The notes beneath the pieces were generated by a model. That model did not search any database. It worked only from the letters and a program-made list of their open reading frames with translations, and was not told where the DNA came from. This document shows, piece by piece, positions 9,908 to 15,631 of a stretch of 64,000 nt of DNA. How positions within the stretch are numbered: position 1 is the stretch's first letter; each line of letters opens with the position of its first letter. Where the stretch lies: positions 640,001-704,000 of the forward strand of contig CAWFGE010000012.1 of the NCBI GenBank assembly GCA_963815195.1, given 5' to 3'. Position numbers and translations under genes: made by a program. This DNA is from an uncultured Planctomycetaceae bacterium. Its GTDB lineage: Bacteria; Planctomycetota; Planctomycetia; Planctomycetales; Planctomycetaceae.

Positions 9908-11199
9908 TCAGACGGCGCGGAGCACGACCGCGGCGCTTTGGCCGAGGCTTGTGCGGTTTACGCAGAGCGCGGCGGGCAGAGATTGATCGATGGGGTGCTC
10001 GTGAATGACGTTCAGCCGGCAGCGGGGATCGGGGGTTTGATAGTTCAACGTCGCCGGGATTCGCCCGTGCTTGAGTGCGAGCAAACTCCCCGCGAGTTCC
10101 ACCGCGCCGGCCCCGGCGTCGAAGTGGCCGAAGTAACTTTTGAGTGCCGTCACCGGAATGATCTCGGCGGCTTCTCCCAACGCCCGGTGATAGGCCCGGG
10201 CTTCGATCACATCGTCGCGCTCGGTGCCTTTGCCGTGGCGCGTTGATGTGCCCCAACTCGGCCGCGCGGACCTGGGTTTTCTTGAGCGCGGCTTGGATGG
10301 CGACAACCAGGCCCGTGCCCCCCGCGGCATTCGCGTAACCCTTCCCGTCCGAGCCCGCGCCGCTGCCCAAGATTTCCGCGTAAATCTCGGCACCGCGGCC
10401 GCCGGGCGTGGGAAAAACTCTCGAGGACAAACGCCGCCGCCCCTTCGCCGAGGATTGTGCCGTCCCGCTCGAAATCAAAAGGCCGGCACGGCGCGGGATC
10501 GGAGGTCCGACGGGACAAACCTTCAAACAGGCAAAACTTGGCAATATCCACCGGCTGAAGATGCGAGCCGCAGGCTCCGACGATCATGCAGTCCGCGGCG
10601 CCGCGTTCGATCACGTTGACCGCTTCCGCGAGAGCCAGAATTGCCGACGTATCCCGGTTCGTGATCGTGTTGTTCGGCCCGCGGGCGTCGAATGTGATCG
10701 AAACGTGGCAGGCCGGCATGTTCGGGAGTTGCCTGAGCAGCCACAACGGGGCGATCCGGCCCATGTCCTCTTCGCCCCACCGGGAGGCGGCAAACGGGAT
10801 TCGCTGTTCCGCGAACGGCCGCACCGCGTCGGCGAGTTCCTCAGGCGTCGTGGAGATTCGCCCCGCTCCATACACCACGCCCAAGCGGTCGGGATCCACG
10901 TCCCCGGGTTCCAAGCCGGCGTCGCCCATCGCCAAAGTCGCCGCCCCCACGCCCAGTTGAATGTCCCGCGACATCACCTTGAGGAATTTTTTCTGGGGGA
11001 GATACATCAAGGGATCGAAGTCCAAGACCTCCGCGGCGAAACGCGTGGGCAGGTTTCGCGAGTCCAAGGCGCGCAGGCGGCCGATTCCGGACCGGCCTTC
11101 CATCAGGCTCGTCCAGAAGGCCCGATTGCCGATGCCGATGGGCGACACCACGCCCACCCCGCTCACGACCGTCCGTGTCGCGGCCTCGCCTCTATTCAT
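9908..11199 (-). CDS. FabF-like beta-ketoacyl synthase homologue lacking the catalytic Cys; 2 frameshifts (~10400, ~10240)
   Basis: VVSGVGVVSPIG, PCRPFDFERDG..GEGAA, HINAHG and KSYFGH motifs across three frames. Confidence 0.85.
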
Positions 11200-11360: not shown

Positions 11361-11561
11361 TCAGTTGTTTCGATCCCCCCGGTAATGCCGGCGGGCTTCG
11401 AGCAGGGCTTTGAGATTCGCCGCCCGGTGGGTTTTCGCCGCGGCTTCGACGGGCAGTTCGTAATCCAGCCGGGACAGGATCCCGTCCCGCAATAGCCGCT
11501 CGATGTCCCGGTCGATGCGGGTGAGGAGTTGTTCGAGGGATTCTTCGGCAGGAAGTTTCAT
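11361..11561 (-). CDS. Small hypothetical protein
   Basis: 66-aa helical ORF with GAGG RBS, co-oriented with the capsid genes. Confidence 0.5.
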   Translation of the reverse strand: MKLPAEESLEQLLTRIDRDIERLLRDGILSRLDYELPVEAAAKTHRAANLKALLEARRHYRGDRNN

Positions 11562-11689: not shown

Positions 11690-11822
11690 TTACGCGCCGT
11701 CGACCTTGGTGACGAACGAAGGGCGTGGTCGCCAAGATCGCCACGCCCTTCGCTGCGCAAAGGGTCGTGCCACCCGGAATTGTGCCCGATCCTTTACGCG
11801 CCATCGACCTTGGTGACGAACG
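11690..11822. repeat. 29-bp direct duplication of the capsid gene 3' end flanking a truncated REP-like element
   Basis: TTACGCGCCRTCGACCTTGGTGACGAACG at 11690-11718 and 11794-11822, 1 mismatch. Confidence 0.9.
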
Positions 11823-12989
11823 CAGTGTCCACGGCGGAGATGCCGCCGTAGTAGCGGACCTTCACTCGCAGCACCACGTCCCGCTCAAAGGCGGACGGGC
11901 TGTCGCCTCGCTGCAGGAATGTTTGGATCGGCCAGATTTCCGTCCACACAAACTGCTTCGCGAAATCGCCCAGGTACCAGTCGTTCGCCGCCTGTCCGCC
12001 TTGCTCGTCGATGAACGGCGAACTGAGCACCTCGACCAAACTGCGGACGGGGTTCGCGACGCGGGTTTGATAGTCGCCGTTGGTGATGGTGACTTCGGTC
12101 GAGTTCACAATGCTCGACGCCGTGCCGCGCAGGTTTTCCGGCACGAGCAGTTGCCGAACCGGCACGACCAGCGGCCGCGGCGTCCCATCGATGCGGTCGT
12201 CCAGAACTTCCGTGGCCCGGTAGTGCAGAACCTCTTCGACGTCGGTCCAATCGACCAGAGGCACCGCGGCATTGAAGCCCGACGAAGTCGTATTCCCCGA
12301 ACCGACCCAGTTGCGGTTCGAGCCGGCCGTGTTGTAAAGCGTCTCCCCGCTGCCGTTGGGCCGATAGACGTATTTGCCGGACGAGGCGTCGGCATCGGTG
12401 ACGCCGCGGAGGATCGTCCGCTCGCGCTCCTGGCGGAGATAATATCCCAGCGCCGCGCCCGGCGGTTGATCTCGCCGGTCTGGTCGAACACGATCAGCTC
12501 TTCGTTGATCGAGAGCACTCGGCCCTGTTTGGTTTCCTCCGTGGTGACGTATTTTTCCTCGAAGGTCGATTCCTCGTAAGGATGGCCTTCGGGAACTTCG
12601 GTCGGACCGGCGAGGGCTTTGAAGCCGGCGATCTTCTGGCTGCGAAGCCGGCTGGGCAGGATCGTCACCAGCCGGTCGCCGACGAAGCCGCGGTCGTCCT
12701 CGTAGCCGGCGATCACCTGCCGGCCGATGAGTTCGCCCGTAACCACCTGAAACAAGTTCGTGCCCACGCCGGGGTTCGATTCGCTGAGCGCGGCGGCGAG
12801 ATGAGGCAGCGGCTGCCGCAGTTCGTTCATGTGCCGGAGTCGCGGCAAAACGCCGCAGGCGTCGGCGAGTTCGTAATAGCTGAAGTCATCGCTCGCGAGC
12901 TTGCCCTCGTTGAGCAATCCGCACACGCGGTGATAAAAGCCTTCGGGACCCAAGGATTCGATGAGGTAAGCCAGATTCTGTCGGGACAT
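11794..12989 (-). CDS. Major capsid protein, HK97 fold, Mu gpT-like; one frameshift at ~12455
   Basis: EVPEGHPYEESTFEEKY..TKQGRVLSINEELIVFDQTG, QLLVPENL, WYLGDF and VVLRVKVRYYGGISAVD motifs; third gene in protease-decoration-capsid order. Confidence 0.85.
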
Positions 12990-13063
12990 GTTGCACCTTG
13001 ATAAGAGAGGTTTCGGAGAAGGACAAAATCAAAACCGGAGGCTAGCGCCTACCGCTCACGTTC

Positions 13064-13543
13064 TTAGCCGAGGGTGGCGTTGGCGTTGGCGGCACCGGGG
13101 TGATACGCCGAGGCGAACTGCACCCGCAGCGTGCTGGAGGCCGAGGCTTGATACTCCGCAGCCCGGGCGACGGCGTTCCCAGCGCTCGCGGCTTCGAGCT
13201 GCTGGTTCATCAATGCCGACGAGTTTTCATCCGGCCCGAGCGAATCCCCGACCTCGTAGGTGGCCGAGTTGACGTCGAACTCATAGACCGAGAAGGGGCT
13301 CAAGTCGACGGACACATCGTCGGTGTCGCCGTCGGCGGACTGCTGCTGGGCGACGCCCAGAAACACCGCGGCGAACTCGGATTGGGTCGTGGCGAGATCG
13401 GTGTCCCAGGTGAAGTCGGAGGCGGGCTTCACATCGTCGGTGTCGAGGAACACGAGGTCCCCCGCCTCGATCACCGTGCCGCTGTCCACGCGGAGTTTGT
13501 GCAATTGAACTTGCCCGCTGCGAAAACGAAGTTGGTTCGACAT
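13064..13543 (-). CDS. Capsid decoration/cement protein (DUF2190 / beta-tulip-like)
   Basis: VIEAGDLVFL...FLGVAQ...VYEFD...YEVGD pattern; lies between protease and capsid genes; AGGAG RBS. Confidence 0.7.
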   Translation of the reverse strand: MSNQLRFRSGQVQLHKLRVDSGTVIEAGDLVFLDTDDVKPASDFTWDTDLATTQSEFAAVFLGVAQQQSADGDTDDVSVDLSPFSVYEFDVNSATYEVGDSLGPDENSSALMNQQLEAASAGNAVARAAEYQASASSTLRVQFASAYHPGAANANATLG

Positions 13544-13589
13544 GATTGGCTCCTGAAAAGAGAGGGGAAAGGTTTTGGGAATGGGGCTC

Positions 13590-13695
13590 GGGTGGCACGC
13601 CCCTGAGCGCAGCGAAGGGCGTGGTCTCTGTGATCGCCACGCCCTTCGCTGCGCTCAGGGGCGTGCCAGCCAACCGCTTACTTCGTGCGCGGCTC
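13590..13695. repeat. REP-like palindrome doublet plus CCGCTTACTTCGTGCGCGGCTC motif
   Basis: TGGCACGCCCCTGAGCGCAGCGAAGGGCGTGG...CCACGCCCTTCGCTGCGCTCAGGGGCGTGCCA perfect arms; same family at 11717 and 20033. Confidence 0.9.
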
Positions 13696-13709
13696 TCTCG
13701 CACCTACGT

Positions 13710-14537
13710 TCAAAACCGCCGGAGGGCGGCGAGGAATTGCTCGTCCGTCACCGACGGAGCCAAGAAACCGGGATCGGGCAAACGCTCGCGGCTGAAGGGT
13801 CCGCTTTGCGAACGCGCGAGCGAATCCAGCAGGGTTTCGCGTTCGCCAATGAGCCGCCGGCGGGCTTCCGCGGACGGGGCCGCCAGCAGTTGCTCGCGAA
13901 AGACCTCCGTCACGGCGGCTTTCGGCAAGCGGGATTCTTCGAGCAGTTCCTGCACCTCGCGCTCGGTTTGCAGTTGTGCGAGTTCGGCTTTCAAGTCCGC
14001 GATTTGCGCTTTCAGCAAATCGCGCTCGCTTTCCGCGGCACTCTGCTGCTCCTGAAAGGATTGCGTGGTCGCGGGGAAGACGACGGCGTCCACGCTGACC
14101 ACGTCGTGAATCTTTTCCACCACGAGACCGTCGGCGGATTTCTCGGCGAGGATCACGTGGCTCATGCCGACCGCCGGCCCGTTGGACTCGGCCAAAGCGA
14201 GAAACGTCCGGCCGGCTTCGGTGTCGATCACACGGATGTCGCCGCGAATCCGCCCGCCTTCGTAGCGGACATTGACGACCGATCCCACCAAATCCCGCGT
14301 GCTCCGCTGATGCGGGTGCGTCCGCGAGGCGGCGTGATCGAGGAACACGGGCTTCTGCTCATACAAAGGCAGAGCCTTGGAAAGGGCCTCTTCCGAATAG
14401 CGGTAGCCGTTGCGGGATTCCAGCCCCGTCAAAGCCACGTTCTTGACGATCCGGTTTTCCGGATCGACTTGCACCTCGTGCGCAATCCAGTCGGCGATGT
14501 GTTCGGTCAGCGTTTGGCAAGTCGGAGATTCGGGCAT
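13710..14537 (-). CDS. Prohead maturation protease fused to a coiled-coil scaffold
   Basis: SRNGYRYSEEAL, VFLDH (His), VGMSH (Ser) and SVDAVVFPAT motifs of clan SH prohead proteases; Glu/Leu/Ala-rich helical C-terminus. Confidence 0.85.
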   Translation of the reverse strand: MPESPTCQTLTEHIADWIAHEVQVDPENRIVKNVALTGLESRNGYRYSEEALSKALPLYEQKPVFLDHAASRTHPHQRSTRDLVGSVVNVRYEGGRIRGDIRVIDTEAGRTFLALAESNGPAVGMSHVILAEKSADGLVVEKIHDVVSVDAVVFPATTQSFQEQQSAAESERDLLKAQIADLKAELAQLQTEREVQELLEESRLPKAAVTEVFREQLLAAPSAEARRRLIGERETLLDSLARSQSGPFSRERLPDPGFLAPSVTDEQFLAALRRF

Positions 14538-14779
14538 CGCGGCACTCCAGCAAGGGAAAGGAAGTTTTCGTTTCTTACCCTACAGGAGTTGATTGCGCCA
14601 CAAGCCGATTTTTGAGTGCAAACGCTTTGCGACAAAGACGTTGGAAAAGCTGCGCGTCCGCGTTTTGTATGAAAACAGGTCCCGCAAGCCAGCCGGAACG
14701 CGCTCGCGTCCGGTTCTTCCCGGGAACCGGGGCTCGCGCCCTGCGGCTAATGAATGCGACGACTATTGCTCGCGTGATC

Positions 14780-14986
14780 CTAAACGCCGGACATTGCGAG
14801 TTGCTCTCGGCGATGAGAACGTTTCCTGGGCCGATTGGACTTCATCAGAGATTCGAGTTCCTCCAACGGCAGGCGGCGGAAATCGATGTTGGCTTGGGCG
14901 AGCATGTCGAGAAGCTCGAATCCCAATTCGCTTTCACAGAGGACGGATTCCACTTGACGATCGTTGTGTTGAGGCAAAGTTTGCAT
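14780..14986 (-). CDS. Small hypothetical protein
   Basis: 68-aa ORF MQTLPQHNDRQ... with acidic core and basic tail, upstream of the capsid module. Confidence 0.45.
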   Translation of the reverse strand: MQTLPQHNDRQVESVLCESELGFELLDMLAQANIDFRRLPLEELESLMKSNRPRKRSHRREQLAMSGV

Positions 14987-15316
14987 GGCGTCAATCTCTT
15001 TCAGGGGGTGTATTCCGGTTGATCGCTCCGATCGAACGGACCACCCCCGTTGCAAGCCCCGTTCCCGAAGACGCGGGACGGCCGATGTAGAATTTGCAAT
15101 CGTCGCAAAAGGTTGGACAATGGGCAGGTGCGAACTTGCGTTTGCCGATTTTGTAAAGTTGACATTGCCGGCAAAGCGAAGCGATGTGTCTCACTCCCGC
15201 GACATTTGCTATCAATTTGATTGAAAGCGGAGAGCGGAACGCCGGACAAAAGGCGCTGCCATCGCGGAGCGATGGGCGACTTTCAAAAACGGAATCCAAT
15301 ACGGAGAGGACAACCC

Positions 15317-15631
15317 ATGAGCGAAACGAATCCTTCCGCGGCGGAAGCTCCCTGCCATCACGTGGTGTATCACGGCCGCGTGCAGGGCGTGGGGTTTCGG
15401 CTGACCGCCTGCCAGATCGCGCGGCGGTTTCCCGTCAGCGGCTACGTGAAGAACATGCCCAGCGGCACCGTGGAGATGGTGGTCCGCTCCGACCAGGCGG
15501 CGCTCGAGGATTTTCTCAAAGACGTCGAAGCCGCGTTCGAGGGCGACATCGACGACCGCGAAATCCGCGAAGCCACGCCCAACGAATGCTTCGACATCGA
15601 AACCCACGCCGGTTTCGAGATTCGTTATTGA
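15317..15631 (+). CDS. acyP: Acylphosphatase
   Basis: GRVQGVGFR and GYVKN..GTVE motifs. Confidence 0.92.
   Translation: MSETNPSAAEAPCHHVVYHGRVQGVGFRLTACQIARRFPVSGYVKNMPSGTVEMVVRSDQAALEDFLKDVEAAFEGDIDDREIREATPNECFDIETHAGFEIRY

What the first reader, a model, noticed from the sequence alone, without database searches (positions are those of the whole stretch)
11794..14537. Stand-alone phage head module (protease/scaffold, decoration protein, Mu-like capsid): candidate domesticated capsid system
Seen: three co-oriented, full-length genes in head-gene order, flanked by a FabF-like gene and acylphosphatase. I recognise no portal, terminase, tail, integrase, repressor or lysis gene anywhere in the 64 kb, and no decayed phage ORFs at the flanks. 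Known: tailed-phage HK97-fold heads need a portal and terminase to package DNA, gene transfer agents can have their genes split over several loci, and encapsulins are HK97-fold shells without a prohead protease. Inference: keeping exactly the shell-assembly genes suggests a host-retained particle. It could be a dispersed GTA-like system, a portal-less nanocompartment or a capsid-interference anti-phage module.
Basis: partly seen in the sequence, partly recalled or inferred. Interest (0 to 1): 0.88.

Follow-up and report, generated by a model that had tools for sequence, protein, structure and literature searches.

The report
Tailless domesticated phage head, split locus
These genes are the shell-building piece of an old virus-derived particle kit that many Planctomycetaceae bacteria inherit like their own genes; this genus keeps the shell and, far away on the chromosome, the DNA-packing motor, but has lost the tail, so it probably makes tailless DNA-filled particles for a purpose of its own.

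Summary
The three head genes are real (T4-gp21-like protease/scaffold, cement protein, HK97-fold capsid), plus a missed fourth, a shortened gpW-like adaptor. The capsid is broken by one base, most likely an assembly error. The module is not portal-less: terminase and portal lie about 450 kb away on the same contig, beside the ThiF gene that flanks the cluster across the family. Capsid orthologs occur in 76 of 151 family genomes (74 with terminase) and in none of 276 other Planctomycetota genomes at E<=1e-40. They are mostly vertically inherited and under purifying selection (dN/dS 0.06-0.16 for capsid, terminase, portal). Complete copies have a short tape measure, like gene transfer agents. 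This genus lacks the tail genes; tail loss recurs in at least five lineages, in graded steps. Best reading: a domesticated GTA-like system reduced here to tailless DNA-filled heads; particles, cargo and purpose are untested. Closest precedent: tail-less GTA clusters of alphaproteobacterial endosymbionts, a separate lineage. Not found in ten literature searches. This scan reported the same system before on other DNA (e1-4197691, e1-3157537; possibly e1-7821297).

The parts
14780..14986 (-). 68-aa ORF of unknown function, co-oriented upstream of the protease; found only in the four genomes of this genus
   Evidence: tblastn hits in G001, G002, G003 loci at 61-80% identity and in no other fetched locus; no Pfam or PHROG hit
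13710..14537 (-). Prohead protease (residues 1-160) fused to a coiled-coil scaffold-like C-terminal part, 275 aa
   Evidence: AlphaFold model pLDDT 82; Foldseek best hit T4 gp21 5jbl, E 9e-7, next hit E 0.02; H68, S126, D150 invariant in 21 of 21 aligned sequences (their reading as the catalytic triad is inference from recalled gp21 chemistry)
13064..13543 (-). Capsid cement/decoration protein, 159 aa
   Evidence: PF09956 Phage_cement_2, 25.6 bits, cut-off 24; dN/dS 0.10-0.21 in the genus
11794..12989 (-). Major capsid protein, HK97 fold, 398 aa in intact relatives; one-base gap near 12453 in this assembly
   Evidence: PF25209; model of the 94%-identical G001 ortholog pLDDT 80 matches HK97 1ohg E 1e-9 and RcGTA capsid 6tb9 E 4e-9 at 10-13% identity; single gap vs G001
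11361..11561 (-). N-terminally shortened gpW-like head-completion (adaptor) protein, 66 aa vs about 90 aa in tailed relatives; relaxed selection
   Evidence: Family alignment; Atlas feature hit of a full-length ortholog to a gpW cluster, score 0.93, PF02831 on 70% of members; dN/dS 0.15-0.65 in the genus vs 0.03-0.23 in tailed pairs
13581..13685 (.). Genome-wide palindromic repeat between protease and cement genes; other intergenic repeats at 11716-11780 and 14686-14765; host repeats, not att sites
   Evidence: 105, 75 and 112 matching places in G000
10207..11199 (-). Flanking host gene, FabF-like ketoacyl synthase (frameshifted C-terminus); not part of the module
   Evidence: PF00109; not beside the head genes in relatives
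15221..15631 (+). Flanking host gene, acylphosphatase; beside the module only in G001
   Evidence: PF00708

Best explanation
The genes are the head-assembly locus of a single, ancient, host-domesticated tailed-phage module of Planctomycetaceae that works like a gene transfer agent. The ancestral cluster (ParB-like, ABC/GNAT, TerS, TerL, portal, X, protease, cement, capsid, tail chaperone, gpW-like adaptor, stopper, neck, terminator, tube, short tape measure, two putative tail-tip genes, glycosyltransferases) has broken into two loci in this genus and lost everything downstream of the adaptor. Shown: gene identities and folds, the second locus, inheritance, selection, tail absence. Inferred: the protease-scaffold nucleates capsid on the portal ring and cuts itself out; TerS/TerL pump host DNA through the portal; cement stabilises the expanded shell; the result is a tailless DNA-filled head. 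Most likely use (inferred, about half of this reading's weight): a subpopulation releases protected chromosomal DNA that kin take up without injection, via ComEC-type uptake.
For: Packaging genes on the same contig at C12:1,104,240-1,112,191, next to ThiF as in 24 of 32 loci, 20 of 28 genomes. Capsid ortholog in 76 of 151 family genomes, TerL in 74 of these; none of 276 genomes of other families at E<=1e-40. Head+portal tree shares 7 of 10 splits with RpoBC (13 genomes) and 9 of 25 (28 genomes); shuffles reach at most 3. dN/dS in the genus: capsid 0.06-0.10, TerL 0.10-0.14, portal 0.10-0.16, with dS close to that of RpoB/C; on G000's own branch pN/pS 0.15, 0.11, 0.15 vs RpoB 0.04. TerL Walker A/B and nuclease motifs kept in 37 of 37, 38 of 38, 37 of 37 sequences. 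No integrase, repressor, replication or lysis family among 55 flanking ORFs of G015, G022 and G000, only an IS481 transposase. Gene after the tube is mostly 223-342 aa in chromosomal copies vs 822-1022 aa in four viral contigs. Tail genes not found in G000 by 8 profile searches nor in G001-G003. ComEC present in G000.
Against: No particle, cargo or expression data. The G000 capsid and portal are each broken by one base as assembled. Without tube, stopper and tip there is no known way to inject DNA, and the adaptor is shortened and relaxed, so the head may not be sealed. Capsid dN/dS in this genus is 2-4 times that of tailed pairs (0.02-0.03). Tree congruence is partial; strong conflicts involve G061 and neighbours. 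ComEC is also in G070, which lacks the cluster, so it does not discriminate. No lysis gene was identified. G000 is 94.6% complete; divergent tail genes could be missed.
Confidence: 0.55

Rival explanations
1. Anti-phage device: the host keeps head and motor to interfere with incoming phages (mis-sized or tailless heads that trap phage DNA, or a terminase that shreds DNA in an infected cell). The tail is then irrelevant.
For: Explains why head and motor outlast the tail in at least five lineages and why TerL persists without a capsid match in 5 genomes, two of them 97-100% complete. Related capsids exist in free viral contigs at up to 53% identity.
Against: Defence genes usually turn over fast and sit in islands (general knowledge); this cluster is slow-evolving and site-fixed. 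Tail genes are under purifying selection where present (dN/dS 0.02-0.26), which fits an infective particle.
Confidence: 0.17
2. Slow decay: a once-functional GTA-like system is being lost in stages (tube, tip, adaptor, head, motor); residual conservation reflects lag or selection against misfolded products, not a function.
For: Nested loss series: 45 complete, 11 without tube, 20 without tube and hub-like gene among 76; 75 of 151 genomes lack the ortholog; adaptor relaxed; IS481 between portal and gene X; two breaks in G000.
Against: Head and motor stayed open and constrained over dS near 1 in this genus and in a second tailless genus (capsid dN/dS 0.03-0.06). Breaks match the assembly's background: 24 of 147 host genes are broken, RpoC five times, 30 breaks in 188 kb; two breaks where about one is expected, P 0.25.
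Confidence: 0.13
3. Tail piracy: DNA-filled tailless heads are released and capture tails made by phages or by tailed relatives, as capsid-forming PICIs do.
For: The gene set resembles the cf-PICI packaging module (10.1101/2025.02.11.637232, abstract and passages); the adaptor is kept in 9 of 20 tailless genomes; G001 and G002 carry unrelated tape-measure genes elsewhere.
Against: cf-PICIs need adaptor and connector; the stopper/connector is not found in G000, the adaptor is degenerating, and 11 of 20 tailless genomes lack it. No integrase or replication module.
Confidence: 0.08
4. Encapsulin-like protein nanocompartment with no DNA role.
For: HK97 fold shared with encapsulins; head genes sit apart from the motor.
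Against: Portal and terminase are present and constrained; 19 of 20 tailless genomes keep TerL; an apparently active maturation protease is retained; no conserved cargo gene beside the capsid.
Confidence: 0.05
5. Remnant of an ordinary, recently integrated prophage.
For: IMG/VR lists four close copies as viral contigs.
Against: Those four have the host-cluster gene order and nest among chromosomal copies; other viral capsids (<=53%) fall outside the chromosomal clade, support 0.897; no GenBank phage match; fixed site, single copy, host-like dS.
Confidence: 0.02

Closest known systems
Tail-less GTA clusters of Rickettsiales and Holosporaceae endosymbionts (George et al. 2022, PMC9254644; parts 1-3 of 4 read, the whole main text)
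   Same: Capsid, portal, protease and terminase kept under purifying selection, tail genes missing or relaxed, terminase at another locus, function unknown, no particles seen.
   Different: Those are RcGTA homologs in reduced endosymbiont genomes. This is a separate phage lineage (lambda-type portal PF05136, PF25209 capsid, gp21-like protease) in 4-9 Mb genomes, with tailed, tube-less and head-only forms side by side in one family.
RcGTA of Rhodobacter capsulatus (multilocus genome: Hynes et al. 2016, PMC5026251, abstract read)
   Same: Host-kept head-tail genes over several loci, no replication or integration genes, short tape measure (RcGTA length recalled, about 220 aa).
   Different: No sequence homology (capsid structural match at 10-12% identity); no tail in this genus; random DNA packaging and transfer not shown.
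Capsid-forming PICIs (He et al. 2025, 10.1101/2025.02.11.637232; abstract and passages read)
   Same: Own capsid, protease, portal and terminase but no tail; tailless heads.
   Different: cf-PICIs are mobile 10-18 kb islands with integrase, replication genes, adaptor and connector. This module is split, immobile, vertically inherited and lacks the connector.
Encapsulins (Andreas and Giessen 2021, PMC8346489; passages read)
   Same: Host-encoded HK97-fold shell.
   Different: This system keeps portal, terminase, protease and cement; capsid family PF25209; the paper's only Planctomycetes passage concerns anammox cytochrome-fused encapsulins.

Membership tests
Gene transfer agents (functional class) | Phage-derived head and DNA-packaging genes in the host chromosome | tested here: met
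Gene transfer agents (functional class) | No integrase, replication or repressor module at the cluster | tested here: met
   55 flanking ORFs of G015, G022, G000; 59 window ORFs
Gene transfer agents (functional class) | Vertical inheritance and purifying selection | tested here: met
   congruence partial (9 of 25 splits in the larger set)
Gene transfer agents (functional class) | Tail for DNA delivery | tested here: not met
   Not found in G000-G003; tube present in 45 of 76 family copies
Gene transfer agents (functional class) | Particles package random host DNA pieces too small to carry their own genes | not testable with these tools
   Needs particle purification and sequencing
Gene transfer agents (functional class) | Heritable gene transfer to recipients; host-regulated expression | not testable with these tools
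   Needs a bioassay and transcript data
RcGTA lineage | Homology to RcGTA head genes (PF05065 capsid) | tested here: not met
   Capsid is PF25209, no PF05065 hit; 10-12% identity to RcGTA capsid structures
Capsid-forming PICI | Integrase and replication module in one island with the packaging genes | tested here: not met
Capsid-forming PICI | Head-tail adaptor and connector both present | tested here: not met
   Shortened adaptor only; stopper/connector profile finds nothing in G000
Encapsulin | HK97-fold shell protein | tested here: met
   (model of the G001 ortholog)
Encapsulin | No portal, terminase or maturation protease; cargo enzyme gene adjacent | tested here: not met
Active prophage | Contiguous genome with integration, replication, lysis and tail genes; patchy, variable sites | tested here: not met

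The most novel reading that the evidence does not exclude
Free-living planctomycetes have repeatedly turned a domesticated tailed particle into a tailless DNA-packaging capsid that is useful without injection: a terminase-loaded DNA compartment that delivers genes by uptake, or traps phage DNA. The family would show a natural series (tailed, tube-less, head-only) of one particle, with the function residing in head and motor.
Probability: 0.35. Interest if true: 0.9.

Novelty: new variant of a known kind. Interest (0 to 1): 0.72.

Why it matters
No GTA-like system for Planctomycetota turned up in ten literature searches, and its origin is independent of RcGTA. The open question raised for endosymbiont GTAs, why heads and motors are kept when tails are lost, could not be tested in those hosts. 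Here the same pattern arose several times in free-living bacteria, and named isolates carry the capsid (Planctopirus hydrillae, Thalassoglobus neptunius, Planctomicrobium spp., Maioricimonas sp.), so particles, cargo and knock-outs can be studied. It also matters for annotation: copies are listed as viruses in IMG/VR.

Tried and rejected
Complex prediction of portal (2 copies) with the shortened adaptor, G001 sequences: no verdict, score 0.00; no evidence either way. Sequencing runs: no RNA holder listed. Contigs of four DNA runs were laid on the region: one 151-base contig at depth 2.3 crosses the capsid break with two letters left out, but has under 31 letters on one side, so it does not count as bridging. 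PDB sequence searches with the tube, adaptor and hub-like alignments found nothing; 'hub' (c13) and 'distal tail' (c14) are positional labels, with only one weak PHROG tail hit, E 0.003 in 1 of 10 members. No sigma-70 promoter or excess terminators near the module. No GenBank phage match. The 136-aa plus-strand ORF at 14612-15022 was rejected as the shadow of the conserved minus-strand 68-aa ORF. Capsid-only trees are poorly resolved (2 of 10 splits). G003 RpoB/C dN values are inflated by frameshifts and were not used as baseline. The ABC/GNAT break was first counted as an error and then removed from that count, because it sits on a conserved A-run. Literature; none describes this cluster. PMC12673574 (review of the phylum, passages): no 'gene transfer agent' or 'prophage'. 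PMC13092639 (one passage) calls tail and head genes in Brakhagea prophage regions; whether that is this cluster was not checked. PMC11588811, PMC13626063, PMC9425974: passages only, nothing on it. No supplements were read; most subscription journals are not in the library.

Full report
Observation. The minus strand carries a 275-aa gene (14537-13710), a 159-aa gene (13543-13064) and a capsid gene (12989-11794) read in two frames. The 159-aa protein passes Pfam PF09956 (cement) and the capsid passes PF25209; the Mu gpT match is only E 0.13. The AlphaFold model of the first protein matches T4 prohead protease gp21 (E 9e-7), with His68, Ser126 and Asp150 invariant in 21 of 21 sequences and a coiled-coil C-terminal half. 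The intact, 94% identical capsid of G001 folds as HK97. A fourth gene at 11561-11361 belongs to a family that follows the capsid in relatives and resembles gpW adaptors. No other phage family was found among 59 window ORFs.

The capsid break. It is one missing base against G001. In this assembly 24 of 147 conserved host genes are broken, RpoC five times. Two error-type breaks (capsid, portal) in about 6 kb is within that rate (P 0.25). G001 and G002 have open capsids; G001-G003 have open portals. Public contigs could not settle it. I read the breaks as assembly errors; that is inference.

The missing half. Searching the own genome with proteins of a complete relative found ParB-like, ABC/GNAT, TerS, TerL, portal and gene X in cluster order at C12:1,104,240-1,112,191, about 450 kb from the window. 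TerL is open (507 aa) with conserved ATPase and nuclease motifs (motif names recalled). The locus adjoins a ThiF gene, as it does in 24 of 32 loci, 20 of 28 genomes. So the head genes moved away from the ancestral site; the system is split, not portal-less. Splits are common: in closed genome G008 capsid, terminase and portal/tail lie at 0.11, 3.51 and 3.69-3.72 Mb.

The family-wide cluster. In complete copies such as G015 the order runs from ParB-like gene through terminase, lambda-type portal (PF05136), head genes, neck, tube, tape measure and putative tip genes to glycosyltransferases. Flanks are ordinary host genes, with no integrase, repressor, replication or lysis family among 55 ORFs. 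Of 151 family genomes (>=90% complete, G000 included), 87 match the capsid; I set aside 11 with only a distant type (about 30% identity), leaving 76 orthologs (59-100%), essentially single copy. TerL is in 74 of the 76. In a phylum sample, 15 of 24 family genomes and none of 276 others match at E<=1e-40. The family is Planctomycetaceae by the record titles of the closest loci. The gene after the tube is mostly 223-342 aa, against 822-1022 aa in the nearest viral contigs, the short tail typical of GTAs.

Inheritance and selection. A head+portal tree shares 7 of 10 splits with RpoBC (13 genomes); with 28 genomes and TerL added, 9 of 25, and 9 of 18 well-supported host splits (shuffles at most 3), with real conflicts around G061. 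Chromosomal capsids form one clade (support 0.897) that includes four IMG/VR records with host-cluster gene order; other viral capsids are at most 53% identical and outside. Within the window's genus dN/dS is 0.06-0.10 for capsid, 0.10-0.14 TerL, 0.10-0.16 portal, 0.10-0.21 cement, 0.11-0.21 protease domain; dS for G000-G001 is 0.37-0.46 against 0.31-0.35 for RpoB/C. On G000's terminal branch pN/pS is 0.11-0.16 for capsid, cement, TerL and portal, 0.34 for the protease (few changes), 0.48 for the adaptor, 0.04 for RpoB.

The tail is what is gone. Eight tail-gene profiles find nothing in G000; tube, hub-like gene, chaperone and neck are not found in G001-G003; generic neck, tape-measure and sheath families do not ring in G000. 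Of the 76 genomes, 45 have the tube, 11 lack it but keep the hub-like gene, 20 lack both; 19 of these 20 keep TerL and 9 keep the adaptor. Some absences may be assembly gaps, but whole genera agree (g1 3 of 3 in this sample plus G003, g9 3 of 3 with one closed genome, g38 4 of 4, g45 3 of 3, g42 2 of 2). On the host tree the head-only state falls in at least five places, and the sister of this genus is a tube-less form. Where tails exist they are constrained (dN/dS 0.02-0.26, four pairs). In tailless g38 the capsid is as constrained as ever (0.03-0.06); in g9 it is 0.24.

How it most likely works. Shown: parts, folds, second locus, inheritance, selection, tail loss. Inferred from HK97/lambda/T4 head assembly: scaffold-protease and portal nucleate a procapsid, the protease matures it, TerS/TerL fill it with DNA, cement stabilises it. 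With no phage genome to replicate, the DNA should be host DNA. In tailed relatives this is a GTA-like particle; here it would be a tailless DNA-filled head (confidence 0.55). Its use is open: protected DNA for uptake by kin is my first choice (ComEC is present, but not diagnostic), then phage interference (0.17), staged decay (0.13), tail piracy (0.08), protein compartment (0.05), recent prophage (0.02). Against function: no expression data, a degenerating adaptor, capsid dN/dS 2-4 times that of tailed pairs, and motor-only genomes that could be the next step of loss.

Comparison and novelty. It works like a GTA by genomic criteria, but membership is unproven (packaging and transfer untested, tail absent here) and it is not of the RcGTA lineage. 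The nearest precedent is the tail-less GTA gene set of Rickettsiales and Holosporaceae (PMC9254644, main text read). It fails cf-PICI and encapsulin tests. Ten searches found no description. Earlier scan notes describe the same family system from other genomes (e1-4197691, e1-3157537) and tailless planctomycete head clusters that may or may not be the same (e1-7821297, e1-7821474; sequence look-ups found no overlap). I reached the split-cluster reading before seeing them; the A-run lead came from e1-3157537. What this window adds is the head-only state under selection and the graded, repeated tail loss. Verdict: new variant of a known kind, interest 0.72.

Noticed in passing
L054:12838-14070 (G000:C12 about 1,109,800-1,111,070): The ABC-ATPase/GNAT gene before the terminase changes frame at a run of nine A; runs of 8-9 A stand there in 27 of 38 rows (some rows repeat a genome), so it looks programmed. 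Lead from e1-3157537.
   Followed up: yes
L054:7755-8918: An IS481-family transposase sits between the portal and the next cluster gene in G000 only; not in G001-G003.
   Followed up: partly
L057:9543-10391 and L058:8634-9938: Two more PF25209-type capsid genes in G000 with no portal, terminase or tail hit among the neighbouring ORFs scanned; distant from the domesticated capsid.
   Followed up: partly
L055:7980-9170: Orphan terminase-large-subunit-like gene (phrog_38, E 9e-25) beside a transposase in G000.
   Followed up: no
L233:7059-19449: The island that e1-7815898 calls a capsid-only satellite; I saw an integrase fragment and a phrog_731 hit. Whether it could use the domesticated portal and terminase is untested.
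   Followed up: partly
L214:7192-11194, L230:7316-11407, L231:7025-10274: G140, G101 and G056 (97-100% complete) keep the terminase operon with no capsid match; a motor-only state.
   Followed up: partly
L183, L186, L188, L189: Tube-less forms: chaperone, neck, tube and tape measure are gone while genes on both sides remain in order. G085, of this type, is sister to the window's genus in both trees.
   Followed up: yes
L044:17609-19401, L040:17044-19733: Tailed clusters end in an MptE-like gene and one or two glycosyltransferases; possible particle glycosylation.
   Followed up: no
L049, L050, L051, L052: A distant capsid type (about 30% identity) with its own portal-protease-capsid order occurs in other families and is the only type in 11 family genomes, e.g. 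4 of 4 of genus g3; possibly a second domesticated lineage.
   Followed up: no
G000 genome-wide: The assembly carries about 0.16 frameshifts per kb of conserved coding sequence, RpoC included; broken genes in it should not be read as pseudogenes.
   Followed up: yes
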